DNA of 64,000 nucleotides from Naegleria gruberi (Eukaryota). Of the stretch, positions 9,398 to 47,365 are shown in pieces. The notes below the pieces were generated by a model. It ran no database searches, had not been told where the DNA came from, and saw nothing but the letters and a program-made list of their open reading frames with translations. Within the stretch, counting starts at the first letter, position 1. The number at the start of each line of letters is the position of its first letter. The position numbers and the translations under genes are program-made. The DNA lies in NCBI GenBank assembly GCA_000004985.1, contig GG738879.1. One strand, given 5' to 3'.

Positions 9398-11455
9398 AAA
9401 ATGACTAGACAACAAATGCTAAACTCGAGTAAGCTTTCAAAGCTTGCTATATTATTATATTTGATTGTGACTATTGTGTTTGCCAACCTTGTACACAGTG
9501 ATGATAAATCTGAATTGAACATGGCTTACACTGTAGATCAGACGAATTACATTCCAACCTCAGTCTCGTATTCTAATTCTGCTAATAACAATGGTGCTTT
9601 AACCAAATCAAGCACAACCACTTACTATTCCTCTTCAACGTCTGGCTATCCATATGGAGGCGGGGCAGTTCCTATTGGTGCAGCACCAGTTGCACAACCT
9701 ATTTTACAACCTCAACAAGTGATTGTTAATCCACAACCAATTCCACAACCTATTCCTCAAACATATGCTCAACCAATTCCTCAACCATACCCACAACCTA
9801 TTCCACAAGGTGTTCCTATAGCAGGAGGGGCAGTTCCACAACCAATTCCTCAACCTATTCCACAAGCTGCTCCGTATGCTCAACCTCTTATTACTCAACA
9901 ACCTATTCCTCAACCTCTTCCATATGCAGGAGGAGGTGTTCCAATTGCAACAGGAGCCCCATATGCTCAACCTCTTCCATATGCAGGAGGTGGTGGTGTA
10001 ATTTATGGAGGTGGAGGTGGTGTTGTAGGTGGAGGTGTTGTTGCTCAACCAATTCCACAACAAGCTCCAATTATTTACTCTGGAGGTTGTAGTGTTTATG
10101 GAGGTGTTGGATGTGGAGGTACTATTCCACAACCTATTCCACAAGCTGTCCCTATTGCTCAACCTTTACCCCAACCTGTTCCTCAACCAATCTTGCAACC
10201 TATTCCACAAACTTATGCCCAACCTATTCCACAACCTCTTCCATATGCAGGAGGAGGCATTGTTTATGGTGGAGGTGGCGTAGTTTACGGAGGTGGAGGT
10301 GGTGTCATTGCTCAACCAATTCCACAACCAGCTCCAATTATTTACTCTGGTGGCTGTGACGTTTATGGAGGCGTTGGATGTGGAGGTGGTGGTGTAGTTT
10401 ATGGAGGTGGAGGTGGCGTAATTTATGGAGGTGGAGGTGGAGGTGGTGTAATTTATGGAGGTGGAGCTGTACCTATTCAACCATTTACAGTTGACACTGT
10501 TGCACCTGTATCCTTAGTGACATATCCTCAAACAGTGGTAGTGAGTCCACCTGTAACAGCAACACCTTGTACCACTGGTAAATGCTCTTCTGTGGATACC
10601 TACGTACCTAATGTTATAGTCCCAGCTTCAGCAGGTGTAGCAACACCTTGTACCACTGGCAAATGTTCTTCTGTGGACACCTACGTACCTAATGTTATTG
10701 TCCCAGCTTCAGCAGGTGTAGTAAGCGTTCCCCTCAAGAGTAATAATGTTGTTGTTGGATCTGGATCTACAACTGCTTCTACTTGTTTATTGACAGTAAG
10801 AGGATTGACCACATTAGCTCTTAGCCCATCCTCATCCATCTGTTCTTCAGTTGTCAATTGTATAATTACTTACATTTCAGATTATGTGCAATATGCTATC
10901 AATGCCCTCAATTACGACAGTAGCACTTCTCTCACTGTGAACTCTCAAGATGAGAATGTAGATTTGTGGAAGGCTTTAGAGAATATTGCTGGAAGTATTA
11001 GCGAAGATGGATATGGACCTGCAACAACTACAGCTTCAGCAACATCAGCTGCTTGCACCAATGATTTGGCTCCTGTTTTTGCCAGAACCTCTAAAGGTGG
11101 AGCAGTATTTGTTAATTCATGCTGGGCAAGAATGGCAAAGGCCTATCCACCATTTGTTCCAGTTACACTCAAACCTGGTTCTGTTTCTAGTGGAGGTCAA
11201 TTTGATTGGCCAGATGATGTTCAAAATCCAAACTATGTTGTTGCCAATTACTATGTATTGAGCGCTTTCAGATTGACAAACTTTGCCTTGTACTACTTTA
11301 GACCTTGTATGAGTGCAAGCACTTACACTGTTCTCTCTAATGCCCTACAATCTTTGAACGACATTTCAGCCTTAATAACTGCTGGCAATGTTACAAGAGC
11401 AAACGCCTTATTGAGTGATTTACAAAAAAGTTTGAGCACATTATCTAGTGCATAA
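9398..11455 (+). CDS. secreted repetitive Pro/Gly-rich protein (extracellular matrix or spore-coat-like), with a duplicated Cys-containing motif
   Basis: Signal-peptide-like N-terminus MTRQQMLNSSKLSKLAILLYLIVTIVFANLVHS; an alternative ATG lies at 9365. Long PIPQ(P/A) and YGGGGGV(V/I) repeats. PCTTGKCSSVDTYVPNVIVPASAGV occurs twice. Non-repetitive C-terminal ~250 aa. Confidence 0.55.
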   Translation, partial: KMTRQQMLNSSKLSKLAILLYLIVTIVFANLVHSDDKSELNMAYTVDQTNYIPTSVSYSNSANNNGALTKSSTTTYYSSSTSGYPYGGGAVPIGAAPVAQPILQPQQVIVNPQPIPQPIPQTYAQPIPQPYPQPIPQGVPIAGGAVPQPIPQPIPQAAPYAQPLITQQPIPQPLPYAGGGVPIATGAPYAQPLPYAGGGGVIYGGGGGVVGGGVVAQPIPQQAPIIYSGGCSVYGGVGCGGTIPQPIPQAVPIAQPLPQPVPQPILQPIPQTYAQPIPQPLPYAGGGIVYGGGGVVYGGGGGVIAQPIPQPAPIIYSGGCDVYGGVGCGGGGVVYGGGGGVIYGGGGGGGVIYGGGAVPIQPFTVDTVAPVSLVTYPQTVVVSPPVTATPCTTGKCSSVDTYVPNVIVPASAGVATPCTTGKCSSVDTYVPNVIVPASAGVVSVPLKSNNVVVGSGSTTASTCLLTVRGLTTLALSPSSSICSSVVNCIITYISDYVQYAINALNYDSSTSLTVNSQDENVDLWKALENIAGSISEDGYGPATTTASATSAACTNDLAPVFARTSKGGAVFVNSCWARMAKAYPPFVPVTLKPGSVSSGGQFDWPDDVQNPNYVVANYYVLSAFRLTNFALYYFRPCMSASTYTVLSNALQSLNDISALITAGNVTRANALLSDLQKSLSTLSSA
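9700..10470 (+). repeat. coding tandem repeats (degenerate 15-18 nt units for PIPQPx and GGGGVVYGG) inside the secreted-protein gene
   Basis: ccacaacctattcc/cctcaaccaattcc units repeated many times and ggaggtggaggtgg(t/c)gt(a/t)gtttatgga units. They open spurious ORFs in other frames and on the minus strand (9704..10162, 10029..10283, 10111..10359, 10166..10480). Confidence 0.7.
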
Positions 11456-15699: not shown

Positions 15700-16016
15700 T
15701 TTAATTCTTTTTATTAACAAATTCCTCAATAAGAAGGTAATCATTTCGATTGAAGAAGAAATAATTTTGCAATTTCGAAATTAGATTTGATTCTGAACTA
15801 AAAGGCTGATGATCTTTTTAACAAGATTCCCAAATGAATCATTCAAAAACTCTCCTAAAAACAATAAAATAGGTTGTATCAGTTTGAGAACTTTCGGATT
15901 ACATTTATTTCCAAATCACAAACAATCACAACATGATTCTCATTGAATGTCACACCATCGTAATCATTGGTAGCATGTTTCTCTCTAATTCACAAAGTAA
16001 CAACCTAAATTAAAAA

Positions 16017-17097
16017 ATGTCGATACATCGTTCTGGATCAAAGCCACTCATTGTTTCAGAGGCGTATGGCAGAAAGTTGACACCAACAACATCAAAAACC
16101 AACAATGAAGATAGTTTATCAGATTCTACTCCATATTTTGATGCTTCGGCAATTAAAGATTTTAATACTAAACCTAATAATAATGGAGGTGGATCAAATA
16201 ATAATAATGGGTCGTGGACTGATACAGTAGCAAGGAGATGGAAGAAATTTTCTAGTTGGACGATCGGAAATAGAAGATTAAAGATGTATATTTATTCAGT
16301 TCTAAAGGTAGGTTGTTGGAAAGGATAAACTAAACTAAATCACACGAAAGTTTGCTACTATTACATACGTTCAAGCAAATGACGTATTGGGCAAAGCTTC
16401 AAACACAAATAATCAAACAGAGAAGGATATGCAAATGGCATTCAAAGTTCTTTCATATCTATACATGGCTATTTTAATTTTACTTTTCACTTTCAGATAT
16501 GTTAGAGAATTGATTGCAATTTCCAGGAAGAAACCTCTTTCAATTTGGGTAAACTGGATTGAATCATCTGTTTTTTTAACCTATATTTGCTATTCGATTG
16601 TTACTTCTGTCATTCACGTTGTTTACATTACAAAACACTACAATGCTGAATATGAAGAAAGATTATTGCATCCAGAGAATTTTGCTTACAAAACAGTTAC
16701 ACTTGAGGAAGAGTTGGCAGTGGAAATTTTGGAAGTTTTTGTTCACTTGTACATCATCTTTGATAAGTCAACGCATTACCTACATGCAGGACACAGTGTT
16801 TCTCTATATTTGGCTAAAGCTCAGCATATTCCAAAGAATGCTCATCCAGGGCATGATCAAAATCAAAACCATTATCATGATGCCTTCGATCATCATGCTC
16901 ATCTTTACACAAATCAATCTGAAACTGATGACGAAGAAAAGAGTGATGAAGTATATGATGATTTTATTGGAAAACCAAAAGAAGCCACAAAACCAACAAC
17001 AAGAAGACACACCGTTATGGCAATGACACCACCAAGACAAAATATTGATTCTGAAATTTTATTGGAAGAGCCAAGATTGGCATTTAATAAGTTTTAA
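16017..17097 (+). CDS. hypothetical membrane protein, probably 2 exons, approx join(16017..16307,16351..17097)
   Basis: Exon 1 ORF ends at a GTAGGT donor (16308). An in-frame acceptor follows at ...cacgaaag|ttt (16350); an alternative acceptor is at ...gggcaaag|ctt (16395). Exon 2 has 3 hydrophobic segments (MAILILLFTFRYV, VFLTYICYSIVTSVIHVVYI) and a His/Asp/Glu-rich tail. No family recognised. Confidence 0.4.
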
Positions 17098-17119
17098 TTG
17101 GAAAATAGAGTTGTGTGAA

Positions 17120-17300
17120 GGGAATGCACATCAATAAAGATCAACTTTCCAATTTTGATGATTAGTTATATTTGAAAAAACAATTAAGGACATGTAGAGC
17201 TAAGATTCTGCACCATCAAAAGAAAAGTCTCCCACAAGCATAAAGGAGAATAGTAGCCTTCAGGAATGTCGAAGTTGATTATTTTACCTTTTTTTAATGC
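17120..17300 (+). pseudogene. degenerate partial copy of the promoter-proximal region and first ~45 codons of the FHA-domain gene at 18180-18400
   Basis: Shared strings: aaagatcaactttcc...caattttgatgat...acaattaaggacatg...aaagaaaagtctcccaca...tagcct...ttacc. The copy has atgtag (stop) in place of atgaag and carries several indels. Confidence 0.45.
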
Positions 17301-17573
17301 TTTTCTTGGTATATCAACTCAATGTCACAAAAGTCAGTACTCATCATCTTATGTCTTGGATTTGCAAATCCAATGAAAAATGCTTCTTTTTGAATCAGAA
17401 TCTTAGCTCTTCTTTGAAACCATACTTTCAACACTAAAAGCCATAGCTCCAGAACAATCGCATAAGGTCAATATAGTTTTCTCTACTTTTGATGGTCGTG
17501 GAATCACCAACAAGGAAGGGATTGCTGGAAGCTGATTACTATTGAAAAATAAATCAAACACGAAGTATCTGAT

Positions 17574-17921
17574 TTGGTTAAAAGTAATCTAGAACATGAT
17601 GATGGAAAATATAGCCTTCTATTAACAGGATCGTTGCTAACTCCAATACGTGAAGGAAGCAATTCAAAGATAGCCCCACACAACAATCTGCAATTTAGAC
17701 ACTCTGTTGTTGGATTAGAGGTACATTTTTGTAAGCACTCTTCATTGCCCATTTGTATTTTAAATGGTAAAGTTGTTTGTCATGGAAAACCCTTATTTCC
17801 TCTGAAACTTTTTCCTAATGAAGATTGGGCAATAGTAGAACTCGATAAAACAAGTGGTGAATACATTTTCGAGAATTCTTTTGGAAGTTCAAACCATGGC
17901 AATAGTTTCGGTGTGATCTAA
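17574..17921 (+). CDS. small ORF of unknown status (possible gene fragment) between the ghost 5' copy and the intact FHA gene
   Basis: 115-codon ORF (MVKSNLEHDDGKYSLLLTGS...DWAIVELDKTSGEYIFENSFGSS...) with no recognisable domain. Weak evidence; it could be noise or a relic. Confidence 0.15.
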   Translation: MVKSNLEHDDGKYSLLLTGSLLTPIREGSNSKIAPHNNLQFRHSVVGLEVHFCKHSSLPICILNGKVVCHGKPLFPLKLFPNEDWAIVELDKTSGEYIFENSFGSSNHGNSFGVI

Positions 17922-18264
17922 AAGGTGTTTTGGATTTTGATAAATCGGAGTGTTTATCTGTTAGTAAGACCTCATGCTGAGTAGATAGAGTCTCAAAAAT
18001 TACCGGCTCATCACTGAAAACATTTTTTTAAGGGTTGTTGTAATTTTAAACTCGAATTAAGTATGTTCAAGAGTTTAGACCCTTAAGGCATTGAGAGAAC
18101 AATAATTCAAAAATTGTTCTTCTTATTCAACACTCAGGTTCAAAAGATAATGTCGCAACCACAACCATTTGCTACAAATCAGTAAAGATCAACTTTCCCG
18201 CCAATTTTGATGATCAGCAAAAATTTGAAAATAATAAAATTAATTAAAAAAAACAATTAAGGAC

Positions 18265-19686
18265 ATGAAGAAGCTTTCTCAACAAGCCTCTGCATCATCA
18301 CAGAAAGAAAAGTCTCCCACAATCATAAGGGAGGACATTAGCCTAGCTACTAAAAGGAATGTTGAAGCTGATAATGAATTAGACTTTACCTCATCATCTT
18401 CAACTAGTAAGGGGGTTGTGTTTGCACTCTTGAAAGGAACAAAACGAACAATTGATATTAATCAATCTAAGGTTTTTATCGGAAGAGATCCTGTTACTTG
18501 TGAGGTGTGTTTGGCAAATTCACCAACAGTCTCAACAATGCATGCACAATTGGAATTTATTGATGATAATTCAAAAGAAAAGCCTAAAGTTGTTTGTGTC
18601 TTGAGAGATTTAAAATCAAAGAATGGAACACTAGTTAATAACGTTAAAGTGAGTCAAAATTTATCATCGATTATTAGGAATGGAGATTTGATTCAATTCG
18701 GACAAGATGAAGTATTTAGATTCGAGATTGGACCTTTTGTTTCAGAAGTTGTAAACAAAGCACCAATCATTGATGCAGATGAATTTACTTCAATAGACTC
18801 ACCTCTCTCATCAGATTTTGAAATTCAAGAGAAAGTGAAGGAAATAACATCTAAGGAAGAAAATGAAACAGATTTTATTGAAACAGAAGGAGATAAATTG
18901 GAAGACACATTCTTTGAAACAATGGAACCAACAAATAGACTCATTGATAGAGAGGTTTATAAGGATGAAAGTCTGAGAATGCACTTGTACGATGAAATTA
19001 ACGATCTAACCTCTGAACTCTCAACTAAATTAAACCTTCTCAATTCCGTCCTTAGTGAAGACACTCCTTACCATAGAAATCAAGTCCCTTTCGAGTTTTT
19101 AAAGTCCATGCACAACCTTTCTGAAAGTATTTCATTCCTCACCAGAGACACGATATTCGAAAGACAATCAGAAATCAAATTTAGAGAACTAGAACAGTAT
19201 GCAAACTCCTTAGAAAGAAAGCTCGTAAATTACAAAAAACTTGGGAAGGATTCTGAAGTTTCACTTGCTCAATGTAAAAAATTATACACCAAATCTAAGG
19301 ATGAAAGCAATAAGAAGATTCATGACCTTACCACCTCCTTACACGGAAGATTGGATGAAATACAACTTCTTAAAAAAGGACTTTCCAATGAAAAAGATAT
19401 AACCAATTCTTTAAAAACAGAAATTGATAGACTCAAATATAGACTATCAATTGAGGTTACACAAACAGAGAGTCTAAGAAAATCCAACGACATTCTCAGA
19501 CAGCAACTGCTCAAAACACAAGATTACTCCAACTTTTTACACAAGGAAATTTTGAAAATAGAGGACTTTCCACTGAATCTCAAAATTTCCAATCTAGTTT
19601 CTAATGAAACAAAACAATCACCAAACCTTAATCAAACGATCAATGCAACTTCAATAATTGAGCAATATAAAAACATGGATCTATAA
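18265..19686 (+). CDS. FHA-domain protein with a C-terminal coiled-coil region
   Basis: ATG at 18265 in the context acaattaaggacATGaag. FHA core VFIGRDPVTCEVCLANSPTVSTMHAQLEF...NGTLVNNVKVSQNLSSIIRNGDLIQFG. The C-terminal 250 aa are heptad-rich (LERKLVNYKK..., EIDRLKYRLSIEVTQTESLRK). Single exon. Confidence 0.65.
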   Translation: MKKLSQQASASSQKEKSPTIIREDISLATKRNVEADNELDFTSSSSTSKGVVFALLKGTKRTIDINQSKVFIGRDPVTCEVCLANSPTVSTMHAQLEFIDDNSKEKPKVVCVLRDLKSKNGTLVNNVKVSQNLSSIIRNGDLIQFGQDEVFRFEIGPFVSEVVNKAPIIDADEFTSIDSPLSSDFEIQEKVKEITSKEENETDFIETEGDKLEDTFFETMEPTNRLIDREVYKDESLRMHLYDEINDLTSELSTKLNLLNSVLSEDTPYHRNQVPFEFLKSMHNLSESISFLTRDTIFERQSEIKFRELEQYANSLERKLVNYKKLGKDSEVSLAQCKKLYTKSKDESNKKIHDLTTSLHGRLDEIQLLKKGLSNEKDITNSLKTEIDRLKYRLSIEVTQTESLRKSNDILRQQLLKTQDYSNFLHKEILKIEDFPLNLKISNLVSNETKQSPNLNQTINATSIIEQYKNMDL

Positions 19687-20066
19687 AATTAGCACTTTAA
19701 GAATTGTGTCACATCTATTTTCTATGTTAATATTGCGGAAGTGCTACTGAAGATGCACCATTTTCAAAGAAATTGGAAATTGGCTCTTTGGAGAATTCTA
19801 CTAATATGATGGCTTTATTACCTTCTTAATTTCCGAATCCTCAAGAATGGAATTCCTCATTGGATGATGTTGTTGAGAGGCAGTAAGGAGAGGAGAACTG
19901 GGTGATGATTTATTCCTTTATTATTATTAATCTTCTTCTTGTTTGCACAACATATCGAAATGATTGATCAGTTCTTTGTCAATATTCACACCATCCACTA
20001 AAAAAAGTTTGTCAGAAATGAATCGTGAGTATGTAGCGTTGACACAATATTGGTCTTTAACTTTCT

Positions 20067-20726
20067 CTAATAATTCAAAGCACTCATCTCATTATGGAGA
20101 AGTTTTTGCATTACAGGTGTGTTTGCATTATTCAGTAAAATAGAATCAGAGGGATTTAACTTTTCGAAAAGTTGACCAATTTCTTCTTTTGTTCCATCTA
20201 TTACCATTAATTTCCCAAATAAATAAAATTTGTGATGGCCTAGATTAAGATTACCAATATGAAGAGATATTTTGGGGTTTTGTTTATGTTGGAAGACTTG
20301 GCGTAAGATAATGGTTGTAGCAAAGTATTCTTGGTGTGTTGGTTTGGCTTGTTGATCGCAAACATTATTGAATATATGTTTGGTGAGTTCAAATAGTGAA
20401 TTTTTTGAAGCAATTTCGTAAGAGATGATACCATTATCCTGATGCTGTTTTGTTTTACCTTGGTATATGAATGAATTTTTTGTTTCCAAATTACTACCAT
20501 GAGCAGTAATAGTTTGTCTTGTTTTTGGCCAATCACCTTTTTCAATAGAGCATACATTAGGTTCTATTCGAAAGTAATTGTCCACTATTATTTCATTTCT
20601 AACGTGTTTAAAATCGTTTAACGGGGGCTCACTTTTATTGCAAACCAATTTAAAGTACTTTGCCACGACGGTGTGTTCTGCTGTTTTAATTTTTTCCACG
20701 TTATTTGCATCTAAGGGTGGAGTCAT
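20067..20726 (-). CDS. hypothetical protein (no confident family)
   Basis: ATG at 20726 in the context aaaaaaATGact. 219 codons, single exon, no recognisable motif (HIGNLNLGHHKFYLFGKLMVIDGTKEE). Confidence 0.4.
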   Translation of the reverse strand: MTPPLDANNVEKIKTAEHTVVAKYFKLVCNKSEPPLNDFKHVRNEIIVDNYFRIEPNVCSIEKGDWPKTRQTITAHGSNLETKNSFIYQGKTKQHQDNGIISYEIASKNSLFELTKHIFNNVCDQQAKPTHQEYFATTIILRQVFQHKQNPKISLHIGNLNLGHHKFYLFGKLMVIDGTKEEIGQLFEKLNPSDSILLNNANTPVMQKLLHNEMSALNY

Positions 20727-20870
20727 TTTTTTATTAAGGATTCATAGTTTGGAAAAAATGGAAGATCAATACATATTTCTCGTAAAAAATTCTTTAGTGA
20801 AATTTTTTTTCCTAACAACTACTTTATCAATTCAGGTGGCACACATTTAGCCAATTAATCCTGGTAAACA

Positions 20871-22727
20871 TTAGTAGAAAGCACTTTGAGGTCGTGGATT
20901 AGGAATAATTTCTTTTGATTCAAAATACGTAACCATTTGTTTGGGTATTTCAGCTAGCACTTCAGAAGCTAATTGTGTTAAATCAGAACATTCAGAAAAG
21001 CTCACAAATTGAACAATGTCTCTTGTCATTTTAGTTCCATTACTGTGAATGAGTGGTTCATCATCAGCATCGAATTTTCTACAACTTGGGAAACTTCTAC
21101 CACCAATACCAACAATTACAATTGAGATAGGTTTGTCATTGGCCTCTATAATTGAATCGATTGTGCCTTGCATGTCAAATGCATCCCCATCAATAATTAA
21201 CAATAGAATATTGTAGAATTGTTGTTGTTGAGTAACAGGAGGAGTTCTCTCAACGACATGTTCAATAACTCTATAAAAGTCATCTCCTCGATAAGGCTTT
21301 CCAGTTTTTGGATTAGTGGCACTTCCCATATCTCCAAATGATAGTCTTGGAACTGCCTTCTCATATGCTTCAAGTATTTCTCCTACACAAAGTTCCTCCT
21401 TATCTGAGAGTGACAGATTAAACATTGGATTCATTTTTAATTCCTTATCTATCCTTGCACCATATCCATATGCTTTCGAATAATTAGTGAAAGTGTTAAA
21501 AGTCAAATACTTACCACCATATATCTTGTCAGAATCATAAGGTTCCAAAATTTGCAAAACTTGTGCAAGGGCTTGTTGATAGTGATTCTTCTTGGAACTT
21601 AAATAATGGAGGGAGCTACTACTGGTGAAACCACCGTTTGATGCAGTAAAATCAATGCCAACTGATACTGAAATGTTACATCCTCCCATAATGTGGTCTA
21701 AAAATTGATCTTGGCGGTTTTCCTTCCTGGCAACAAAGGATTGGTAGATTTGATATTCTGGATTTGGTACTGGAACATGTTCTATCTGAATAGTACATAT
21801 TTCAAACTCAAACACTCCAGAGTTTTTGTAATTCTTCTTTTTTTTTTGAAGGGATGGCTCAATTAAATGGAATTGTTTTACATTATTATTCAGAACTTGG
21901 TCCAAATTATATTTAAATTCTCCAATTAAATCATCCTTCGAGTACTTGTCCTTGTCATAGCATGTCACAAATATATCCTTGTTGTAATCATTGTTGAATT
22001 CATCTAAATTGAGTTTAAAGGATGTCCAAGAAGGGTTCAGATTCTTATAGATAACTTCACTTGTGTAGAGTTTGACTCTTCTTCCAGCAACTTCCTTTTC
22101 AAAGAAAAAGTAACAATCTGACTTTCCAAAGAAATCCTTCTTATCTAATCCAATACCTTTACATTTGAATAGAACTACTTTCATATCTGAATTAACAGTA
22201 GTTGGTATCTCAGAACGTAGAGCATTCAATTCAGCCGAGCTCATACCAGAAAATTTCAAAGTGGCATTCCTTTCAGAATCAGCATTATTAGTGTTATTCG
22301 AATCCGATTGCCTAACAACCTTCTCAACATGAACAAAGACCTCACCTTGTACTTTCCCACTCTTCAAAACAAGATCTAACTTTAATTTACCATCCCTCGA
22401 GCAAACAGCTTGTGATAATGAAAACTCTCTAGTTTTGCCAATAAGCTCACTCTTATTTCCACCATCGTCATCATAGATTTCAATATAAAATTTCTGTACG
22501 CACTCAAAATAATAATGAACACTAAACTTGGTCTTGAACACTGGATTATGATTATTCTGAATTGTTTCGGTATTGCCCAGAAACGTGAATTTATCAACAC
22601 CACCCGATGATGAACTTGTGTTACTTTCGTACAGTTTAGCAAACGGATCAGACTTGGACATCAAGTCCATTCTAGCCAAATTGCAACATGATAAATAAAT
22701 ATCAACAGATTCTCTGGCGGAATTCAT
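20871..22727 (-). CDS. copine (two N-terminal C2 domains plus a C-terminal vWA-like copine domain)
   Basis: 618-aa single ORF. Copine N-terminal signature ...LSCCNLARMDLMSKSDPFAKLY, a second C2 (KVVLFKCKGIGLDKKDFFGKSDCYFFF), and a vWA/copine core ISVSVGIDFTASNG...QYQQALAQV...LLLIIDGDAFD. Confidence 0.85.
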   Translation of the reverse strand: MNSARESVDIYLSCCNLARMDLMSKSDPFAKLYESNTSSSSGGVDKFTFLGNTETIQNNHNPVFKTKFSVHYYFECVQKFYIEIYDDDGGNKSELIGKTREFSLSQAVCSRDGKLKLDLVLKSGKVQGEVFVHVEKVVRQSDSNNTNNADSERNATLKFSGMSSAELNALRSEIPTTVNSDMKVVLFKCKGIGLDKKDFFGKSDCYFFFEKEVAGRRVKLYTSEVIYKNLNPSWTSFKLNLDEFNNDYNKDIFVTCYDKDKYSKDDLIGEFKYNLDQVLNNNVKQFHLIEPSLQKKKKNYKNSGVFEFEICTIQIEHVPVPNPEYQIYQSFVARKENRQDQFLDHIMGGCNISVSVGIDFTASNGGFTSSSSLHYLSSKKNHYQQALAQVLQILEPYDSDKIYGGKYLTFNTFTNYSKAYGYGARIDKELKMNPMFNLSLSDKEELCVGEILEAYEKAVPRLSFGDMGSATNPKTGKPYRGDDFYRVIEHVVERTPPVTQQQQFYNILLLIIDGDAFDMQGTIDSIIEANDKPISIVIVGIGGRSFPSCRKFDADDEPLIHSNGTKMTRDIVQFVSFSECSDLTQLASEVLAEIPKQMVTYFESKEIIPNPRPQSAFY

Positions 22728-22794
22728 CTTTGAGCGGTGGTATTTACCACTATTCGAAACTATTTTTTTGTTGAATTTGAAATTAAAAAATCTA

Positions 22795-22910
22795 ACAAAA
22801 TACTATTTTCACACTATTTGAATCAATGCCACTTCAATATTTGAGAAATCTAAAAACACAGATCTATAAAATTAGCACTTCAATAATTGTCACACATCTC
22901 TTTTCTATTT
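22795..22910 (+). repeat. ghost copy (~80% identity) of the last codons and 3' flank of the FHA-domain gene (compare 19610-19730)
   Basis: ...cttcaata(a/t)ttgag(c/a)aat...aaaaaca(t/c)(g/a)gatctataaaattagcact(t/c)(t/c)aa(g/t)aattgt(g)(t)cacatct(a/c)ttttctat... appears at both sites. Confidence 0.45.
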
Positions 22911-23117
22911 TAGCATTGTAGTGGGAGTTTACAGCAGTTCGTTGTATTTTTCCCTCCAAAATTTTCCCTCCAAAACTTTACAATTTGTTGTACGGTTGAA
23001 GATATCGCTACCCTTTAAATACAATTCACTTCTTCCCTAACCAAATTTTTCAACAAAAAAAAAATCGCTCGTCCTCCATTATAGAGAAACTTGCAAAACG
23101 CTCGTAAATAATAATAA

Positions 23118-24485
<1,368 letters not shown>

Positions 24486-24631
24486 ATTAATTACTCCATT
24501 GAGACTTTTTCAAAAAATTAAGACGTATTCTGTTTAAATCATTTTAGATTCTTTCTGTCACGAATAAGCCAACCTGGTTAAATTAAAAAAAATATTGAGC
24601 TTATCTAATATTATTGAGATGGAAATAAAAT

Positions 24632-25573: not shown

Positions 25574-26966
25574 TTACAATTCCCAATCATCATCACTTTC
25601 CTCATCTTCACTGGAATATTCAATATTACCACGACGAAGTTCCATAATACCTGCAATCTTGGCTGCCAAATTGTTTTGATCACTTTCAGCCATATTCTTG
25701 AATTCTGGTAAATCTTCTTGCTTTACATTTCTCAATTTCTTATTTTTAATTTCAGAAAGCATGTCAACACCACCTGAGGCACCACTATCAGAATCAGTTG
25801 TTGGACTTGCAACAGATACTCTAGGCTTAACAGAGTGATCGACAACTGGTGGAGGAGGAACATTGGTTGGTGGAGGAGGTACAAAACCACCAACTCCAAT
25901 GGCACTTGAGCCAGAAGGAGCATTTGAGCTAGCTCCCTTGAAAGGAGGTGGTGGAGGGGTTGATCTAGTTCCTGGGGTTGGTGGAGGTTGTGGTCTTCCA
26001 CTTGGAACATCCAAAGAAGGAGGTGGGGGAGCATCTGATGTGACAGTGACAAGTGTCTTCATTAAAAATTTGGCAGTTTTCTTATCTTTCAATTCAGCTT
26101 CTGAAATGCCTGCCTTCTCAAATATGGTTTTTAGCTCTTGGGGTATTTCTGTAAATCCACTTTTTGGATCAAAACCAATGTGTGAAACGTGTTTAAACTT
26201 GTCAACCTTTGGTCCAGAAATTTTGATTTGTGACCGGTCAGGAATTTGGTCCTTATTCTTTGTTCCGAAAATCTTGGAGAATAAACCACCTCCACTACTG
26301 CTACTACCTCCACTACTGCTATTGCTAGGAGTGTGTTTCTTTTCAGGTTCCTTATGGGAAGAAGTAGTATGTACAGAGCTACTGGCAGCAATTGAAGTAT
26401 TGACAGCTGTTGGCTTGTTAGCAACTGGTGGAGGAGTGGATGGAGGAGGATTAGTCTTCTTCACTGGAGTAGGTGGGGCAGTACTGGAACCAGTACCAGT
26501 TGGTGAAGAAGAAGAAGAATCAGAACTGTCACTTCTCATATTAACAGAAGGTTTAGTTGAAGGCAAACTTGGAGTTGAACCACCATTGATAGAACCAGTT
26601 GCTTTCAAACGAATGAGTTGACAAACTTGCTTGGCAAATTGATCAGCATCAAATCTTTCAGCAAATAACAATCCAACAAAACCTTCATCAGATTCGAATG
26701 CATGAAAATTGGAAGAAAGTGTTTGATAGTCGAAACCTTCATAACATTCTTGTTCCATAGTAACTGATTTACTCTTCAAATCTACCAACCGAATCATTAC
26801 TACTGATTGCTTTTCAACCAATGTAACTGTCAAAATTCCATAAGAATTGGCATATGACCATTGATTACCATTGTTGGCTTTGTAGAGACGAACTGGTGCA
26901 GAATACTTGATTTCGAAAATGTTTGGTAAAGACAAGACACCTGCAGCGAGTTGTACAGCACGTTTA
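25574..26966 (-). CDS. WASP-family actin nucleation-promoting factor (WH1/EVH1, CRIB/GBD, proline-rich, WH2, acidic tail); main exon, with a short 5' exon unresolved
   Basis: The WH1 region SAPVRLYKANNGNQWSYANSYGILTVTLVEKQSVVMIRLVDLKSKS aligns to Dictyostelium WasA SAVVQLYMALPNSNPSSWSLKYTGVVSFVSD...IRLFDLKTGS. CRIB motif ISGPKVDKFKHVSHIGFDPKSGF, poly-Pro tracts, WH2 LSEIKNKKLRNVKQ and the acidic end SEDEESDDDWEL are all present. The open frame runs upstream to an acceptor at ~26966 (cttgaag|t) with no ATG. One candidate 5' exon is only ATGGA at ~27062-27066, which is speculative. Confidence 0.75.
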
Positions 26967-37641: not shown

Positions 37642-39570
37642 GTGACGACGAAAGCAACAGAGAATCATCACATCTTGATTCCCAGTCCATCATCCATACT
37701 ATTGCTCAATAATAATAGTCCTCATTCTCATCATTTGCATCATCCACAACAACACCAACAGCAGCATCAACATCCAAATCATCACAATCACCGATCCATT
37801 ACCATGAGTATGCTTCAACATCAACAATTGGTCGAGTGTTTTGCTCAAGATCAGATCGATCTGGAGAGCGTTTCATCGTCCTATTGTTGTTCACCTCCGT
37901 CTGCTTCCTCCTCCATGCTACCTGCTACAGCTGCACACCATCACGATGAAACAACTTCTTCTTCTTGTGGCTCGGCTAGTCTTGATGTTGGTAGAAATAA
38001 TTATCTGCACCATCATCATCATCAGAAAGGTTCCTTCGACTCGTTCGATTCCAATCATACGAATTCATCATCGGTATCGGCTGTTGTGGATGAGCGATTA
38101 TTATTATCATCATCGAGGAATGATTCCTTCTCTTCCTTTCATTTGATGGAGGAACAGCCTATTTTCATTCATTCACCATCCAATTCTATTTATTCACCCT
38201 CAGAGGAACATGTTCTCTCATCAAGCCTTGATAATAATAATAATGCGATAACACTTAATAACAATTCTAACAATTCTAATAATGATAAAGTAAAAGAGTT
38301 CAGCAAGTTATCATTTACTAATAACAGTACTAATAATCAACATTACAATAATCCACCAACTATTCGATCATCTCCAAGAGATATCAAATCAATTGCCACA
38401 AGTAAAGTTGCCTACTCTCTCAATGATACCAAATCTACTCAATCCAAAGGTCAGATCGAAGAAGGAATATCAGAATTGGAACAATTATTTGCCTCTAGAA
38501 GAGCTTTCAATTCACTTTCGAAAAAGTATTCAACAGATAACTTGCTTAAAGAACAAAAGAAGAGAAACAAACATTCCACTGATAAGGATCATTTACTATT
38601 GCTACAACAGCAACATCAACCTTCTTTGACAAGTGCCTCTTCATTTACTGCCACTACTTCTACATCATTCCTGGAACCATCCTCCAATGCCATTCGTTCA
38701 ACCAAGTCAACTTCATGTCTTTCACCATCTTCCCCAATTAGTGATTCATTTGAAGAGATCAAGTCAATAATTCAAGCTTACTATAATTACGAGTCCTTTG
38801 TTGAGAGTGCAGATGGGAGAGAAGAATTAAGATTATATTTGAGGAAGAGACATAATGAAGAGATGTTATTAATGTTGGAAACTAGAATTACCTTTCTGAG
38901 TTTCTATGAGGAAGGTTCTAATTTCTATGTGGGAAGAAGAGCTCTGTTAAAAGTGAAAGAATTTCAAATGATTTATTCTCAATTCATTGATACCAATTCT
39001 CAATTCTGTATTAATATTGATTCAAGTATAAGAAACAAATTTGTAAAGCTCAACCCTCGAGTGAATAAGGTTAATACAGAAGAAGAGGCTGCTCTTCTAG
39101 TGAAGGAAATTGATGAATGTTTGGACACGCTTCATTTTAGTGTATCACTTCAGGTCAAGACTGAAATTTTCTCACAATTCAAAAAAACGGAGGAATTTCA
39201 AACTTTCATTCTTTCAAAAATTATAGAACTCCAAGGAAAGAAAGCTTGGGAAGGACTTGAACGTCAAAATGGTACATCATTACATGACAGTCCATCCAAT
39301 CATGGAGGATTTTTCTCCTTCCTAAAGAAAAACCCTCAAAATTCAGCCATCAAGAAATTTGAAGAGAAATTAATTGAGGAATTTCTGATAGAAAATGAGC
39401 TCGCTGAATATTGTGGACAATTCAGAAAGAAAAAACTCTACACTCTAAGCCAAATCCAAAACTACTCTTGTGATGATTATCTAAAGTTGGGTGTTATCAA
39501 AGTTACTCATCAGACCCGATTAATTCGTCTCGTTGGACAATATTTCAAATCCTATTGTAATAAGAATTAA
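37642..39570 (+). CDS. RGS-domain plus C-terminal SAM-domain protein with a Gln/His/Ser/Asn-rich N-terminal half (5' end uncertain)
   Basis: RGS-like region IKSIIQAYYNYESFVESADGREELRLYLRKRHNEEMLLMLETRITFLSFYE...FQMIYSQFIDTNSQFCINIDSSIRNKF. SAM-like C-terminus EFLIENELAEYCGQFRKKKLYTLSQIQNYSCDDYLKLGVIKVTHQTRLIRLVGQYF. The ORF-track start 37642 is a GTG. The first in-frame ATG is at ~37804 (MSMLQHQQ). A short upstream ATG exon is possible. Confidence 0.55.
   Translation: MTTKATENHHILIPSPSSILLLNNNSPHSHHLHHPQQHQQQHQHPNHHNHRSITMSMLQHQQLVECFAQDQIDLESVSSSYCCSPPSASSSMLPATAAHHHDETTSSSCGSASLDVGRNNYLHHHHHQKGSFDSFDSNHTNSSSVSAVVDERLLLSSSRNDSFSSFHLMEEQPIFIHSPSNSIYSPSEEHVLSSSLDNNNNAITLNNNSNNSNNDKVKEFSKLSFTNNSTNNQHYNNPPTIRSSPRDIKSIATSKVAYSLNDTKSTQSKGQIEEGISELEQLFASRRAFNSLSKKYSTDNLLKEQKKRNKHSTDKDHLLLLQQQHQPSLTSASSFTATTSTSFLEPSSNAIRSTKSTSCLSPSSPISDSFEEIKSIIQAYYNYESFVESADGREELRLYLRKRHNEEMLLMLETRITFLSFYEEGSNFYVGRRALLKVKEFQMIYSQFIDTNSQFCINIDSSIRNKFVKLNPRVNKVNTEEEAALLVKEIDECLDTLHFSVSLQVKTEIFSQFKKTEEFQTFILSKIIELQGKKAWEGLERQNGTSLHDSPSNHGGFFSFLKKNPQNSAIKKFEEKLIEEFLIENELAEYCGQFRKKKLYTLSQIQNYSCDDYLKLGVIKVTHQTRLIRLVGQYFKSYCNKN
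37690..37830 (+). repeat. CAN-type codon repeats (poly-Gln/His) in the RGS-SAM gene
   Basis: catcatttgcatcatccacaacaacaccaacagcagcatcaacatccaaatcatcacaatcac... Confidence 0.5.
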
Positions 39571-40575
39571 TAAATACATCATTCCCATCACCTCATTCCA
39601 GTGTTGTATTCATGAAATTTCTCAATCACTTGATGAATAATTTTCACGTGAAATCTTGCATTATCCTAGGCAATTAATATCACCAAATATGGTCATATTT
39701 TTGGTAGTGACATAATTTCAAAAGCACATTTTTTTGCAGTCCAAAGCGAAAAACTCAAAAAGCATTTTTCAACGTATTTGTATGCATCGCTTCGGAGAGA
39801 TGAACATGTGAGAGAACAAATCCATGTGCCTTATTAAAATTGTTCTGTTTTAACCTCCTTAATGAGCCTATAACTGTAGATTCGTTTTACAAGTTTTCAA
39901 ATCGTTTTTTGCATCCTTCTCGAAATGTTGGTGTTGTATAGATTTTTATCCTTCACACATGTGTGATCATCAGTTTGATTGTCAAATGTTACAGCAATTG
40001 TTTAACTATTTTATTTGACAATCTCACAAATTGAATTAATGAGCTTATTTCGAAGTTATTAAATTCACCGAGATGAAGAATCATCATTTTAAAAAGGTGC
40101 CTCATTAACAAACTCAATATCTATTCGAATCAAACGATCGATACAATCTAACAACAACCAATTAATTGTAAGGACCAATTATACATGACGATACAGTTCT
40201 TTTGATTCTCAATCTTGTTTCCTAAAGAGATAACATCCCAACTGCTCTACCTTTTACAAAACAGAGTTTTACTGTGGTGATTGTTTGTTCGCCTCTTTTG
40301 TCCAAAAACGTTTTTCGCCGTGTTTTTTTGGTCAGCCAAAATACAAACAAACAAATAGATGGCAATAAAAGCAGTTTCTTTTGGAGAATATCATCATAGC
40401 ACTATAAAAAACAACGAAACAACTCACTCTCTGGTGACAAAGACGACCACAACTCTCTATTCTCTCACTGCATCATCTCTCTCTAATTGTTATAGTCCCT
40501 CATCATTTCTCATCGTTCATCATCAGCAGAGCAGTGTTCCCAATCATCAGTAACACCACATCATCAGAGAATCTA

Positions 40576-41907
40576 ATGTCCTCACCAACAACTCACTCTA
40601 GTACATCTGGCACTAGCGATGAAGCCATGCCAAATGGAAATCCTAACGATTGTACTTGTCCTACAAATATTAATAATAACATTGTTGGTTCCACTATTAT
40701 TGATGAAGAACTCATCAGGAGAATTGAGGAGGCTCATCAGAATGACCCTAAAATTATTCAATGTTGTAGTACCAATGAAAAGACTGATATTAAACCAATG
40801 CAACAAACCCATGCATTTGAGCAAAAGGAGCTCGATAGAACTCAACAATTACTTGAAACGGCCCTCATTTCTATTATCCAAAAGTATCAAGCACCAAAAC
40901 AAGAACAACAACCAATTATACCAACACCTCTCCCTGTTACTTTACCTCTACCAATAACTATTAATCCACCTAATGTTCTTCAAGATATGATGTGTGCTGC
41001 AGGTGAAAAGAAGGCTAAAGAATCACTTGATCAAGTAATTATCTTGTCATTACTATCCGGTGTTTTTGTTGGTTTTGGTGGTATTGCCTCAATGAAAACT
41101 GGTGGCAGTATGGCCGGATGGGATGCTACCAATCCAGGTTTTGGAAGACTGATCTTCTCAGGTGTTTTTACTGTCGGTTTAATGTTGGTTATTGTTGCAG
41201 GAAGTGAATTATTTACTAGTAATAGTATGGTTATGTTTGTTGCCATGTTGAGAAGAAAGGTTAATGCTTGGCAATTGTGCAAGAATTTGGTTATTTCTCT
41301 CACTTTTAACGTTTTGGGCGCTTTTATTATTTGTTACTTTTTAATGTATTTACCAACTACAGAAAAGGAAATGCACACGGCTCCATTTGTTACGTATGCC
41401 AAATCTCTCGGTGAAAAGAAAGTTTCTCGTTCTCATGGTCTTACTATTCTCTTGGGTATTGGTTGCAATTGGTTGGTTTGTCTTGCTGTCTACATGACCT
41501 ATGCTTCACATATTCTGGTTGACAAATTGATTGCCTTATTCATGCCAATTTTGGCCTTTGTTGCTGGTGGTTTTGAACATTCAGTTGCAAATGGCTTCTT
41601 TATTCCATTAGCAATGTTATACGGTAGTCCAATTACCATGTACGATTTTTTGGTTACCAACTTGATGCCTGCCACACTGGGTAACTTGCTTGGTGGTGCC
41701 TTCTTTGTTGGTATGTGTTTCTGGTACACTCATGGTGTTAGACTTGAAAATATTTACTACTTTGATACCAAATTTACCTTAAAGGCAAGAGAAACTATTG
41801 CTAGACCAATTTTGAATTTGTGGGATAGGGTTGCTGCTCTCAACCCATTCCTCAAGCAAGAAAATCAAGCTCAATCTGCTATTGAGCTTGCTGATCAAAA
41901 AGTGTAA
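40576..41907 (+). CDS. formate/nitrite transporter (FNT) family channel with an ~160-aa N-terminal extension
   Basis: FNT core LLSGVFVGFGGIASM...GSELFTSNSMVMFVAML...GCNWLVCLAVYMTYAS...FVAGGFEHSVANGFFIPLAMLYG, with the characteristic GxELFTGN and GFEHSVANMF-like motifs. First ATG in a good context at 40576 (aatctaATGtcc). The ORF-track start 40534 is a GTG. Confidence 0.8.
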   Translation: MSSPTTHSSTSGTSDEAMPNGNPNDCTCPTNINNNIVGSTIIDEELIRRIEEAHQNDPKIIQCCSTNEKTDIKPMQQTHAFEQKELDRTQQLLETALISIIQKYQAPKQEQQPIIPTPLPVTLPLPITINPPNVLQDMMCAAGEKKAKESLDQVIILSLLSGVFVGFGGIASMKTGGSMAGWDATNPGFGRLIFSGVFTVGLMLVIVAGSELFTSNSMVMFVAMLRRKVNAWQLCKNLVISLTFNVLGAFIICYFLMYLPTTEKEMHTAPFVTYAKSLGEKKVSRSHGLTILLGIGCNWLVCLAVYMTYASHILVDKLIALFMPILAFVAGGFEHSVANGFFIPLAMLYGSPITMYDFLVTNLMPATLGNLLGGAFFVGMCFWYTHGVRLENIYYFDTKFTLKARETIARPILNLWDRVAALNPFLKQENQAQSAIELADQKV

Positions 41908-41982
41908 ATAATTAAGTTTTTTTGAAGAGTGTAAAATAACAAGGTTTTGTAAAATAAAAGAAAATTCGAATGAAATCCTTCT

Positions 41983-43359
41983 TCACTTTTTACTTGTACT
42001 GGAAAATCTATTGGTTGAGTGTGAAAGTGCAATAAACAATCCTAAATTCAATAATGCCAGAGTTGCACAACTGCTCAGTGAATTTGGCCCGACCAAAATA
42101 TTTCCATACCTCTTGTCATGAGCATTAGAAACGTCTGATAAATATTGAGATAATCCACCCATGGCCTCATAAATTCCTCTAGCAAATGACGATATAATTC
42201 CATAATCACGAATAGTATTGGTCTCATTCTTAATCTTTTGTGTTACAAAACAAAGTAGAGGTGAAAGCAAAGTATGACTTAAAACCATTGGAATAACACC
42301 CCATCTCGAATTATTTGCTCCATAATTAATACCTGCCAATGTAAGAGGTACATTCCACAAGCCAGAAATAAATCCAATCAACATTGAATTTTTAAAGAAT
42401 TCTAATGTATCAATAGCATCCTTCCTCTTTTCAAGCTTTTCAATTTTGATCAGTCTATTCCACATAAAATCTCTCCATCCTCTTTCTTCACCCCAATAGC
42501 AAAGAGTATTCATAGAAATACCATGACCTAATGATAAAAAGTAGGAGCTTAAAAACAGGGAAGTATATTTTTTCTTCTCTAAGGTTTCTATTAATTGTTG
42601 ATTTACCACTGGATCATGTTTATATTCATCCAAAACTAGGTTCGATGTGGCTGAATATTTTACATTAGGCACCAATCGATTACCAATTAGAATATTTATG
42701 AATGGAGTGAGGGAGGTCAAGAGTAATAATCTAGGAAATGATTGCTCAATAAATAGTTTCTTTAAAAAATTATAAAATCCAGAAAATATTCCCCTTCCAT
42801 CCTGTTTAGATTTGCGAAATGGAAGAATTGTACTATCTTTCTCATATACAGAGTGGTCATACTCAGAAATTCCAATCCAATCCAATATCTCAGCAATAAC
42901 AGCTGGTGAGTAAATAGTCGTAAGGAAAAAAGCAATTTTTGTTAATATTCCACTCTTCTCCAATACATGCGAATAATCATGAGAGCAAATAGCCAATCCA
43001 CTCATCACCACTCCATTACAGGAAATAAATCTAATCACATCCCTCCTCATGCAATCAATTGTTTTTTCCACATTCTTCCTATCGAAAATCATATTCTCCG
43101 ATTCCCTTTCCCTCATCAAACTCTTCATCATGTAATAAATTTCATTCAACACAGCAACTCCCAAACTTCCCTTCAACATTGCCTTAAGAAGAGTAGAGTT
43201 TGATATTCCGTTATTTCCCTCTCCTCCATGCTCCAAAAAACAAATCAAATCAGAGGAAATTTTGGCGAGAAAATCTTTAGCTTGAAGAGACATTTTTTTT
43301 AATATATTCTTTTGTAAACTTTTGATCTCGTGCAATTTTAAGGTATTTAAGAAGGACAT
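41983..43359 (-). CDS. hypothetical protein (458 aa), no confident family
   Basis: Single ORF with an ATG start. Several moderately hydrophobic stretches (FISGLWNVPLTLAGINYG, LALLNLGLFIALSH). No recognisable catalytic motif. Confidence 0.4.
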   Translation of the reverse strand: MSFLNTLKLHEIKSLQKNILKKMSLQAKDFLAKISSDLICFLEHGGEGNNGISNSTLLKAMLKGSLGVAVLNEIYYMMKSLMRERESENMIFDRKNVEKTIDCMRRDVIRFISCNGVVMSGLAICSHDYSHVLEKSGILTKIAFFLTTIYSPAVIAEILDWIGISEYDHSVYEKDSTILPFRKSKQDGRGIFSGFYNFLKKLFIEQSFPRLLLLTSLTPFINILIGNRLVPNVKYSATSNLVLDEYKHDPVVNQQLIETLEKKKYTSLFLSSYFLSLGHGISMNTLCYWGEERGWRDFMWNRLIKIEKLEKRKDAIDTLEFFKNSMLIGFISGLWNVPLTLAGINYGANNSRWGVIPMVLSHTLLSPLLCFVTQKIKNETNTIRDYGIISSFARGIYEAMGGLSQYLSDVSNAHDKRYGNILVGPNSLSSCATLALLNLGLFIALSHSTNRFSSTSKK

Positions 43360-43488
43360 TTTGAATTCGTGTTCATAATGTCGTCATTGAAACGTGGCAT
43401 GATGTGGTTTTTCAAAAATTTAAATTCTCTTTATTTTACAAAAAAAGGCCGCATTTGCACATTTCAATATTATTGAAAATGATGATTA

Positions 43489-47348: not shown

Positions 47349-47365
47349 TTGAGGATAAAAATAAT

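What the first reader, a model, noticed from the sequence alone, without database searches (positions are those of the whole stretch)
17120..17300. Ghost copy of the FHA gene 5' end about 1 kb upstream of the intact gene
Region 17120-17300 repeats the promoter-proximal sequence and first ~45 codons of the FHA-domain gene (18180-18400) at ~75-80% identity, with ATG-AAG mutated to ATG-TAG. Its counterpart, a ghost of the gene 3' end, sits at 22795-22910 on the far side of the copine gene. The two halves of an FHA-gene copy therefore bracket a ~5.5 kb block (17300-22800). That block itself contains an intact FHA gene, gene 20067..20726 and the copine gene. This is the footprint expected if that block inserted into, or replaced the middle of, an ancestral tandem duplicate of the FHA gene.
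Basis: seen in the sequence. Interest (0 to 1): 0.5.

Follow-up and report, generated by a model that had tools for sequence, protein, structure and literature searches.

The report
Relic copies of FHA gene ends
Two short, decayed copies of the start and the end of one gene in the amoeba Naegleria gruberi mark where that gene used to sit before about 4 kb of other genes was spliced into both of its ends; it is a real but ordinary scar of genome rearrangement, not a working element.

Summary
Window 17124-17295 is a decayed direct copy of the FHA gene's 5' end (18170-18400). It covers about 95 bp upstream plus about 45 codons, has ATG-TAG at 17192-17197 and six indels, and diverges by JC 0.19. 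Window 22822-22918 is an ungapped 86% copy of the last 15 codons, the stop and 49 bp of 3' flank (19639-19735). These are the only dispersed repeats in the 64 kb.

The organism is Naegleria gruberi NEG-M, not a dictyostelid. In N. lovaniensis the FHA orthologue lies directly upstream of alpha-tubulin. The spacer from the 3' ghost to tubulin aligns with the N. lovaniensis spacer. The 3' ghost therefore marks the ancestral gene end, and the orphan ORF plus copine are a lineage-specific interposition.

The "spacer" between the 5' ghost and the gene is a scrambled minus-strand pseudogene with a 306-bp in-place inversion. There is no trace of an FHA middle outside the intact gene, so a tandem duplicate is not needed.

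Best reading: breakpoint duplications from one complex event, or two near-simultaneous events, that joined foreign DNA into both ends of the transcription unit and duplicated the interrupted ends. The ghosts are inert relics. Interest is low to moderate.

The parts
16387..17097 (+). Last exon/ORF of the upstream gene U (no Pfam domain). Its stop TAA is at 17095-17097, 27 bp before the 5' ghost.
17124..17295 (+). 5' ghost: a decayed copy of FHA positions -95 to about +130. ATG 17192-17194 is followed by TAG 17195-17197. It has six indels and has lost the TTTCCCGC motif through a 4-bp deletion.
17297..17905 (-). psi-M: a scrambled pseudogene of the N. gruberi-specific family NAEGRDRAFT_80674/75233. 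Residues 1-14 map to 17905-17864 (-), 125-154 to 17561-17469 (-), 225-243 to 17468-17412 (-) and 278-341 to 17440-17300 (-).
17568..17873 (+). In-place inverted segment of psi-M. It encodes family residues 18-127 on the opposite strand (tblastn E=1.4e-22).
18170..18400 (+). Parent copy of the 5' repeat: the FHA promoter-proximal 95 bp (with E2F-like TTTCCCGC at 18194-18201) plus the first 45 codons or so.
18265..19686 (+). Intact FHA plus coiled-coil gene, 473 aa. Pfam FHA E=1.4e-14. It is 38% identical over 90% of its length to N. lovaniensis C9374_010158.
19639..19735 (+). Parent copy of the 3' repeat: the last 15 codons, the stop and 49 bp of 3' flank.
20067..20726 (-). Orphan ORF of 219 aa. 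Codon usage is coding-like. Its only homologue is in a near-identical environmental strain, where the last 46 codons are missing.
20871..22727 (-). Copine gene, 618 aa with two C2 domains and a copine domain. It equals the N. gruberi predicted protein P0003 once the spurious introns of that model are restored.
22822..22918 (+). 3' ghost: an 86% ungapped copy of 19639-19735, with ghost stop at 22867-22869, 254 bp before the tubulin ATG. It is the positional orthologue of the FHA 3' end in N. lovaniensis.
22919..23123 (+). Ancestral FHA-to-tubulin spacer and tubulin promoter. It shares motifs with the N. lovaniensis spacer (TTTCCC..CCAAA..TTACAAT; CATTATAGAGAA).
23124..24485 (+). Alpha-tubulin gene, which anchors the synteny.

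Best explanation
The ghosts are the outer, now inert copies of two breakpoint duplications.

In an ancestor of N. gruberi the FHA gene lay between gene U and alpha-tubulin, as it still lies next to tubulin in N. lovaniensis. After the split from the N. lovaniensis/N. fowleri lineage, about 4 kb of foreign DNA was joined into both ends of the FHA transcription unit. All of that DNA carries minus-strand genes. Psi-M (17296-18169) went in at the 5' end. ORF219 plus copine (19736-22821) went in at the 3' end.

Each junction duplicated the stretch of FHA that it interrupted: about 225 bp at the 5' end (-95 to +130) and 97 bp at the 3' end (codon 459 to +49). The inner copies stayed joined to the gene body, so one complete gene with promoter and 3' end survived. 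The outer copies stayed attached to the old neighbours (U and tubulin) and decayed through a stop at codon 2, frameshifting indels and substitutions at conserved C-terminal residues.

The likeliest process is one complex event, or two near-simultaneous events. It could be two pairs of staggered breaks that were filled in and rejoined with captured DNA. It could also be serial template switching during replication, with re-priming behind the point of departure.

Shown: the repeats, their disablement, the ancestral adjacency, the absence of an FHA middle elsewhere, and equal divergence.
Inferred: that there was a single event, the molecular process, and that the ghosts have no function.
For: - Repeat pairs are real and direct.
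- They are the only dispersed repeats in 64 kb, and both are ends of one 1.57-kb unit.
- Their divergences are indistinguishable: JC 0.19+-0.04 against 0.16+-0.04.
- N. lovaniensis has FHA then tubulin 286 bp apart with nothing between and no duplicated FHA ends.
- The ghost stop lies 254 bp from the tubulin ATG, and the ghost-to-tubulin spacer aligns with the N. lovaniensis spacer. The flank downstream of the intact gene does not.
- Gene order upstream of FHA also differs between the species: the SAM/FNT/TatD block lies at window 38-47 kb. The 5' end therefore sits at a synteny breakpoint.
- DNA between the 5' ghost and the gene is a pseudogene with an internal inversion and clean internal deletions, which indicates clustered rearrangement.
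- There is no FHA-middle homology outside the gene.
- The inserted DNA has no transposon domains or terminal repeats.
- Ghost residues differ from the gene at positions conserved between species: IIEQ in the gene and IVEQ in N. lovaniensis against IFEK in the ghost.
- The FHA3'-ORF219 junction and the copine-ghost junction are reproduced in an independent metagenome assembly of a 98-99% identical strain.
- Repeat sizes fall within the 46 bp to 1.9 kb range reported for staggered-break breakpoint duplications (PMC1885836).
Against: - The layout is formally identical to [quoted passage not shown]. Sequence alone cannot tell the two histories apart.
- Donor loci for psi-M and ORF219-copine were not retrievable, so junction microhomology and a single-donor origin are untested.
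- Only one outgroup locus was available. It does not share the upstream neighbour, so the ancestral position of the 5' ghost is not shown.
- The 5' pair has six indels and the 3' pair none (P about 0.07 under one rate), which leaves room for different ages.
- The 3' ghost is 97/97 identical between two strains, whereas its non-coding flanks show 10 differences in 212 bp. This weakly hints that it may not be fully inert.
Confidence: 0.55

Rival explanations
1. Dead paralogue. A complete second FHA copy once existed. The ghosts are the two ends of the older in-situ copy, whose middle was replaced by a 5.5-kb block (17296-22821) that carried the surviving copy.
For: - The outer limits of the ghosts (-95 and +49) coincide with the limits of homology of the intact unit, as expected for a whole-gene duplicate.
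- The two ghosts are equally diverged.
- N. gruberi gene families such as alpha-tubulin duplicate as compact units: -67 to +35 around the coding sequence.
- The ghost position is ancestral on the 3' side.
Against: - It needs a prior duplication of FHA into a psi-M/ORF219 context, then insertion of that block exactly into its 1.5-kb paralogue, then loss of the donor.
- No second FHA-like protein from N. gruberi exists in the protein collection.
- There is no FHA-middle remnant.
- The tandem-array version cannot give the nested order without at least two duplications and two deletion/insertions.
Confidence: 0.2
2. Two unrelated events. An insertion with a long target duplication occurred at the 3' end, and separately a small templated patch of the FHA 5' end was copied about 1 kb upstream during break repair, with psi-M being the long-standing upstream neighbour.
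For: - Psi-M is oriented divergently from FHA, like the 139-aa gene upstream of FHA in N. lovaniensis.
- Indel load differs between the two pairs.
Against: - Two rare events would have to hit the two ends of the same gene at about the same time, yet nothing else in 64 kb shows such repeats.
- Psi-M is unrelated to the N. lovaniensis neighbour.
Confidence: 0.17
3. The similarity is chance, low-complexity sequence or an assembly artefact.
For: The genome is AT-rich at 33-34% GC. The 5' junctions have no independent assembly support.
Against: - E-values are 1e-15 and 5e-26 with the low-complexity filter on.
- Identical blocks are GC-containing.
- 14-17% divergence with indels is not what assembly duplication produces.
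- The 3' ghost and its junctions recur in independent contigs L004 and L009.
Confidence: 0.02

Closest known systems
Breakpoint duplications from staggered breaks at rearrangement breakpoints (Ranz et al. 2007, PLoS Biol, PMC1885836)
   Same: - Non-repetitive gene fragments are duplicated at both ends of a rearranged segment.
- Sizes here (97 and about 225 bp) lie within the reported range of 46 bp to 1.9 kb, median 321 bp.
- One copy decays by substitutions and small deletions.
- The duplications are absent from the outgroup arrangement.
   Different: - The duplications here are direct, not inverted.
- The bracketed FHA segment kept its orientation.
- Extra DNA of 0.9 and 3.1 kb was captured at the joints.
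- The organism is a heterolobosean amoeba.
Replicative template-switching rearrangements (FoSTeS/MMBIR, chromoanasynthesis; e.g. PMC8421209, PMC13065848; general knowledge of Lee 2007 and Hastings 2009)
   Same: - Templated insertions, short flanking duplications and a small inversion (inside psi-M) are clustered within 6 kb.
- The pattern looks like alternation between two templates.
   Different: - Junction microhomology and donor templates could not be examined.
- The inserted pieces are kilobase-sized and carry whole genes.
- This is an old, fixed germline event with about 15% divergence, not a fresh somatic one.
Target-site duplications of transposable elements
   Same: Direct repeats of target sequence flank inserted DNA.
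   Different: - The repeats are 5-100 times longer than typical target-site duplications, and the two differ in length.
- The inserts lack terminal repeats and transposase or reverse-transcriptase domains.
Unprocessed partial pseudogenes (gene relics)
   Same: The ghosts are fragments of a parent gene, with its promoter-proximal or 3' flank retained, and they carry a premature stop and frameshifts.
   Different: The two fragments are complementary ends that nest the parent gene between them. Ordinary relics lie beside it or elsewhere.

Membership tests
Partial (unprocessed) pseudogene / gene relic | Significant sequence similarity to a parent gene, including non-coding flank | tested here: met
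   E=1e-15 and 5e-26. The 5' copy includes 95 bp upstream of the ATG and the 3' copy includes 49 bp after the stop.
Partial (unprocessed) pseudogene / gene relic | Disabling lesions or truncation | tested here: met
   The 5' ghost has ATG-TAG at 17192-17197 and six indels. The 3' ghost has only 15 codons and no upstream ORF.
   tblastn with word size 2 finds no FHA residues 46-458 anywhere outside 18265-19686. Self-BLAST finds nothing either.
Transposable-element insertion with target-site duplication | Short target-site duplication of fixed length, terminal repeats, transposition genes in the insert | tested here: not met
   The repeats are 97 and about 170-225 bp. There are no terminal inverted or direct repeats. 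The inserts encode copine, an orphan ORF and a pseudogene with no transposon-related Pfam domain.
Staggered-break breakpoint duplication | Duplicated non-repetitive sequence at both breakpoints, absent in the ancestral arrangement | tested here: met
   There are two pairs at the two ends of one segment. N. lovaniensis has a single copy and FHA-tubulin adjacency.
Staggered-break breakpoint duplication | Duplications in inverted orientation flanking an inverted segment | tested here: not met
   Both pairs are direct and FHA keeps the orientation of tubulin, as in N. lovaniensis. Only the principle carries over, not the classical inversion case.
MMBIR/FoSTeS complex rearrangement | Microhomology at junctions and identifiable donor templates | not testable with these tools
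   N. gruberi contigs other than the window could not be fetched. Metagenome scans found nothing related.
MMBIR/FoSTeS complex rearrangement | Clustered duplications, insertions and small inversions | tested here: met
   Two duplications, two inserts and a 306-bp in-place inversion plus internal deletions in psi-M lie within 17.1-22.9 kb.
Retrocopy (RNA-mediated duplicate) | Poly(A) tract at the 3' end and no upstream promoter sequence | tested here: not met
   There is no A-run after 19735 or 22918. Homology includes 95 bp upstream of the ATG with a motif conserved in N. lovaniensis.

The most novel reading that the evidence does not exclude
Taking the FHA unit (18170-19735) out leaves copine, ORF219 and psi-M tail-to-head on the minus strand, as in one contiguous donor segment. 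The locus would then be two sequences interleaved: FHA-end, donor part 1, whole FHA, donor part 2, FHA-end. That is the signature of a single replication event that switched back and forth between two templates. It re-primed 225 and 97 bp behind its departure points on the FHA template, and it scrambled the psi-M copy through further short switches. This would be a fixed, germline chromoanasynthesis-like event in a free-living protist that rebuilt an intact gene inside its own remains.
Probability: 0.2. Interest if true: 0.5.

Novelty: new member of a known kind. Interest (0 to 1): 0.27.

Why it matters
It gives a dated, base-resolved example of how gene order changes in Naegleria, a genus whose micro-synteny with N. 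gruberi has not been analysed (PMC9928731 left N. gruberi out as too distant). It shows that a gene can survive insertions into both of its ends because the interrupted ends were duplicated. It also corrects the local annotation: an unannotated FHA gene, an unannotated orphan ORF, a copine model with spurious introns and an unrecognised pseudogene. It does not reveal a new functional element or mechanism.

Tried and rejected
- Exact-protein look-ups of FHA, copine and ORF219 found no record.
- N. gruberi models P0003, P0005 and P0123 are not indexed either, so the rest of the N. gruberi genome could not be read.
- Two JGI metagenome scans with the FHA protein and with an FHA alignment returned only GC-rich multi-FHA loci that are probably bacterial.
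- I looked for a decayed FHA middle in 17300-18170 and 19736-22821 and found none.
- I looked for a remnant of the N. lovaniensis 139-aa upstream gene in the window and found none.
- I tested whether an ORF is restored across the 18170|19736 junction when the FHA unit is removed. None longer than 58 aa appears.
- I looked for inverted repeats at the borders of the psi-M inversion and found none of note.
- Retrocopy and transposon readings were rejected (see the membership tests).
- L005 is a 77%-identical copine with a different upstream neighbour in the same metagenome. It is too short to identify a donor locus.

Full report
**The observation**

Reading 16800-23400, a repeat search and BLASTN of 16000-24500 against the whole window all find two direct repeat pairs.

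- The 5' pair is 17127-17259 against 18175-18344 (E=1e-15).
  - MAFFT extends it to about 17124-17295 against 18170-18400.
  - It has 136 of 164 aligned bases identical and six indel events.
  - It covers about 95 bp upstream of the FHA start codon and about 45 codons.
  - The ghost keeps the ATG (17192-17194), but the next codon is TAG.
- The 3' pair is 22822-22918 against 19639-19735.
  - It is 83/97 identical without gaps (E=5e-26).
  - It covers the last 15 codons, the stop and 49 bp beyond.

The identical blocks are not A/T tracts, and both pairs survive the low-complexity filter. A self-comparison of all 64 kb finds no other dispersed repeat. The only other hit is an internal tandem-repeat coding region at 9.7-10.7 kb.

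**Which genome this is**

The window has 33-34% GC.

- The FHA protein (18265-19686, Pfam FHA E=1.4e-14) has one database relative. It is N. lovaniensis C9374_010158, 38% identical over 90% of the length.
- The copine ORF (20871-22727, minus strand) matches an N. gruberi predicted protein at 512 of 512 aligned residues. That model merely splices out three in-frame pieces.

The window is therefore N. gruberi NEG-M, not a dictyostelid. The FHA gene and ORF 20067-20726 have no N. gruberi entry in the collection searched, so they appear to be unannotated.

**Synteny**

The N. lovaniensis locus (L001) reads TatD(+), a 139-aa gene(-), FHA(+), alpha-tubulin(+), GST and so on.

- Its FHA stop and tubulin ATG are 286 bp apart with nothing between them.
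- In the window the ghost stop (22867-22869) lies 254 bp before the tubulin ATG (23124).
- A three-way alignment shows that the ghost-to-tubulin spacer shares motif blocks with the N. lovaniensis spacer. Examples are TTTCCC...CCAAA...TTACAAT and CATTATAGAGAA.
- The DNA downstream of the intact gene (19736 onward) shares none of these.

The 3' ghost is therefore the positional orthologue of the FHA 3' end. ORF219 and copine are interposed.

The duplication is much younger than the species split, for three reasons.

- The repeat copies differ by only about 15%, even in their non-coding part.
- Non-coding DNA between the two species is barely alignable.
- N. lovaniensis has no duplicated FHA ends.

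tblastx of L001 against the window shows that genes downstream of FHA stay collinear: tubulin, the 206/234-aa gene, zf-AN1 and Arf. The N. lovaniensis upstream block (SAM, formate/nitrite transporter, TatD) lies at window 38-47 kb. The FHA 5' end therefore sits at a synteny breakpoint.

**What lies between the ghosts**

There is no FHA-middle homology anywhere outside the gene, even with a word-2 tblastn.

The 890 bp between the 5' ghost and the gene is not anonymous spacer.

- Its longest ORF has coding-like codon usage.
- In a full HMMER scan that ORF hits N. gruberi NAEGRDRAFT_80674 (E=5e-18) and NAEGRDRAFT_75233.
- Mapping the 354-aa protein back onto the window gives these pieces:

| Protein residues | Window coordinates | Strand |
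|---|---|---|
| 1-14 | 17905-17864 | minus |
| 18-127 | 17568-17873 | plus |
| 125-154 | 17561-17469 | minus |
| 225-243 | 17468-17412 | minus |
| 278-341 | 17440-17300 | minus |

This is a minus-strand pseudogene (psi-M) with an in-place inversion of about 306 bp and clean internal deletions. It ends within a few bases of the ghost boundary.

The DNA between the gene and the 3' ghost carries ORF219 and the intact copine, both on the minus strand. ORF219 is an orphan with no Pfam domain. Its one homologue is in an environmental strain.

Neither insert has transposon domains or terminal repeats.

**Independent support**

Metagenome contigs come from one ENA sample that holds a 98-99% identical strain.

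- L009 reproduces the FHA-3'/ORF219 junction.
- L004 reproduces the copine/3'-ghost/tubulin-spacer arrangement.

The 3' side is therefore not an assembly artefact. The 5' side has no such support. However, 17% divergence with six indels is not what mis-assembly produces.

**Age**

JC distances are 0.19+-0.04 for the 5' pair and 0.16+-0.04 for the 3' pair, which are indistinguishable. The 5' pair has six indels and the 3' pair none. Under one shared rate that split has a probability of about 0.07.

**Interpretation**

The order 5'ghost-psiM-[5'-mid-3']-ORF219-copine-3'ghost can be read in two ways.

- A block with its own FHA copy inserted into an older copy.
- The original gene, with foreign DNA joined into both ends and each interrupted end duplicated.

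The sequence is formally compatible with both, but step-counting favours the second.

It then needs insertion of that block precisely into its 1.5-kb paralogue, and then loss of the donor.
- A tandem array cannot yield the nested order without two duplications and two replacement deletions.
- The second reading needs one complex event, or two events.
- The second reading also explains why the duplicated stretches just include the promoter-proximal region and the 3' flank. Only events that left a complete transcription unit would survive.

Three observations argue for one event or tightly linked events.

- The only two dispersed repeats in 64 kb are the two ends of one gene.
- The two pairs are equally diverged.
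- They lie next to a scrambled pseudogene at a synteny breakpoint.

Two known processes produce such duplications.

- Staggered breaks that are filled in and rejoined. Breakpoint duplications of 46 bp to 1.9 kb were reported for Drosophila inversions (PMC1885836).
- Replicative template switching (MMBIR/FoSTeS; PMC8421209 and PMC13065848, titles and abstracts only).

I cannot choose between them without the donor sequences.

The ghosts themselves are most likely inert. The 5' ghost has a stop at codon 2 and has lost a TTTCCCGC motif. The 3' ghost has changed residues that are conserved between species (IIEQ/IVEQ against IFEK).

**A more speculative reading**

Removing the FHA unit leaves copine, ORF219 and psi-M tail-to-head on one strand, as if they came from one donor segment. 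The locus would then be two templates interleaved, as expected from a single replication event that alternated between them. No ORF is restored across the virtual junction, and the donor could not be sought, so this remains a hypothesis.

**Verdict**

This is a real and well-delimited rearrangement scar in N. gruberi. The tandem-duplicate history and the taxon do not. It is a new example of a known kind of feature (partial gene relics and breakpoint duplications) and is of modest interest.

Noticed in passing
window 17297-17905 (inverted part 17568-17873): A scrambled minus-strand pseudogene of the N. gruberi-specific family NAEGRDRAFT_80674/75233. It has an in-place inversion of about 306 bp and clean internal deletions, and it appears to be unannotated.
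   Followed up: yes
window 18265-19686 and 20067-20726: The FHA gene and the 219-aa ORF have no N. gruberi protein in the 5.8-billion-protein collection, so both seem to be missing from the NEG-M annotation. The ORF's only homologue is in an environmental strain.
   Followed up: partly
window 20871-22727: The NCBI N. gruberi copine model (512 aa) removes three in-frame pieces as introns from what is an uninterrupted 618-aa ORF. The full ORF is found intact (99% identical) in a metagenome contig.
   Followed up: yes
window 26003-26956 and 20874-21677: An N. gruberi gene model on a separate 11.5-kb scaffold fuses a WASP-like gene (96.9% identical to the window copy) to the 3' half of this copine. 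It may be an alternative haplotype with a deletion of about 4.3 kb spanning tubulin and the 3' ghost, or a faulty model or assembly.
   Followed up: partly
window 18194-18201; L001 about 9958-9970: An E2F-like site, TTTCCCGC, lies 64 bp upstream of the FHA ATG. A similar TTTGCCGC lies about 40 bp upstream of the N. lovaniensis orthologue. The 5' ghost lost the site through a 4-bp deletion. Only two such sites occur in the 64 kb, where 1.2 are expected by chance.
   Followed up: partly
window 22822-22918 vs L004: The 3' ghost is 97/97 identical between the window and a related environmental strain. Its non-coding flanks show 7 mismatches and 3 indels in 212 bp. This is a marginal hint (P about 0.01-0.07) of constraint or co-option in the divergent copine/tubulin promoter region.
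   Followed up: partly
window 19957-20206 vs L009: The related strain lacks 250 bp, including the last 46 codons of ORF219. The rest of ORF219 is 97% identical over aligned bases (93% with gaps counted), against 99% or more for the neighbouring genes. The ORF is evolving fast or decaying.
   Followed up: partly
window 23057-24520 vs L002: Another alpha-tubulin locus in the related strain matches the window only from -67 to +35 around the coding sequence (98.6%), with unrelated flanks. Tubulin paralogues are compact unit duplicates, probably homogenised.
   Followed up: no
window 38400-47350 vs L001 2700-8400: The SAM-domain gene, formate/nitrite transporter and TatD block lies upstream of FHA in N. 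lovaniensis. In N. gruberi it lies downstream of the Arf gene, in the same orientation. This is a block transposition with one breakpoint at the FHA 5' end.
   Followed up: partly
window 9727-10724: Internal tandem and near-tandem repeats with periods of about 81-280 bp and 72-94% identity, probably inside a repetitive coding region.
   Followed up: no
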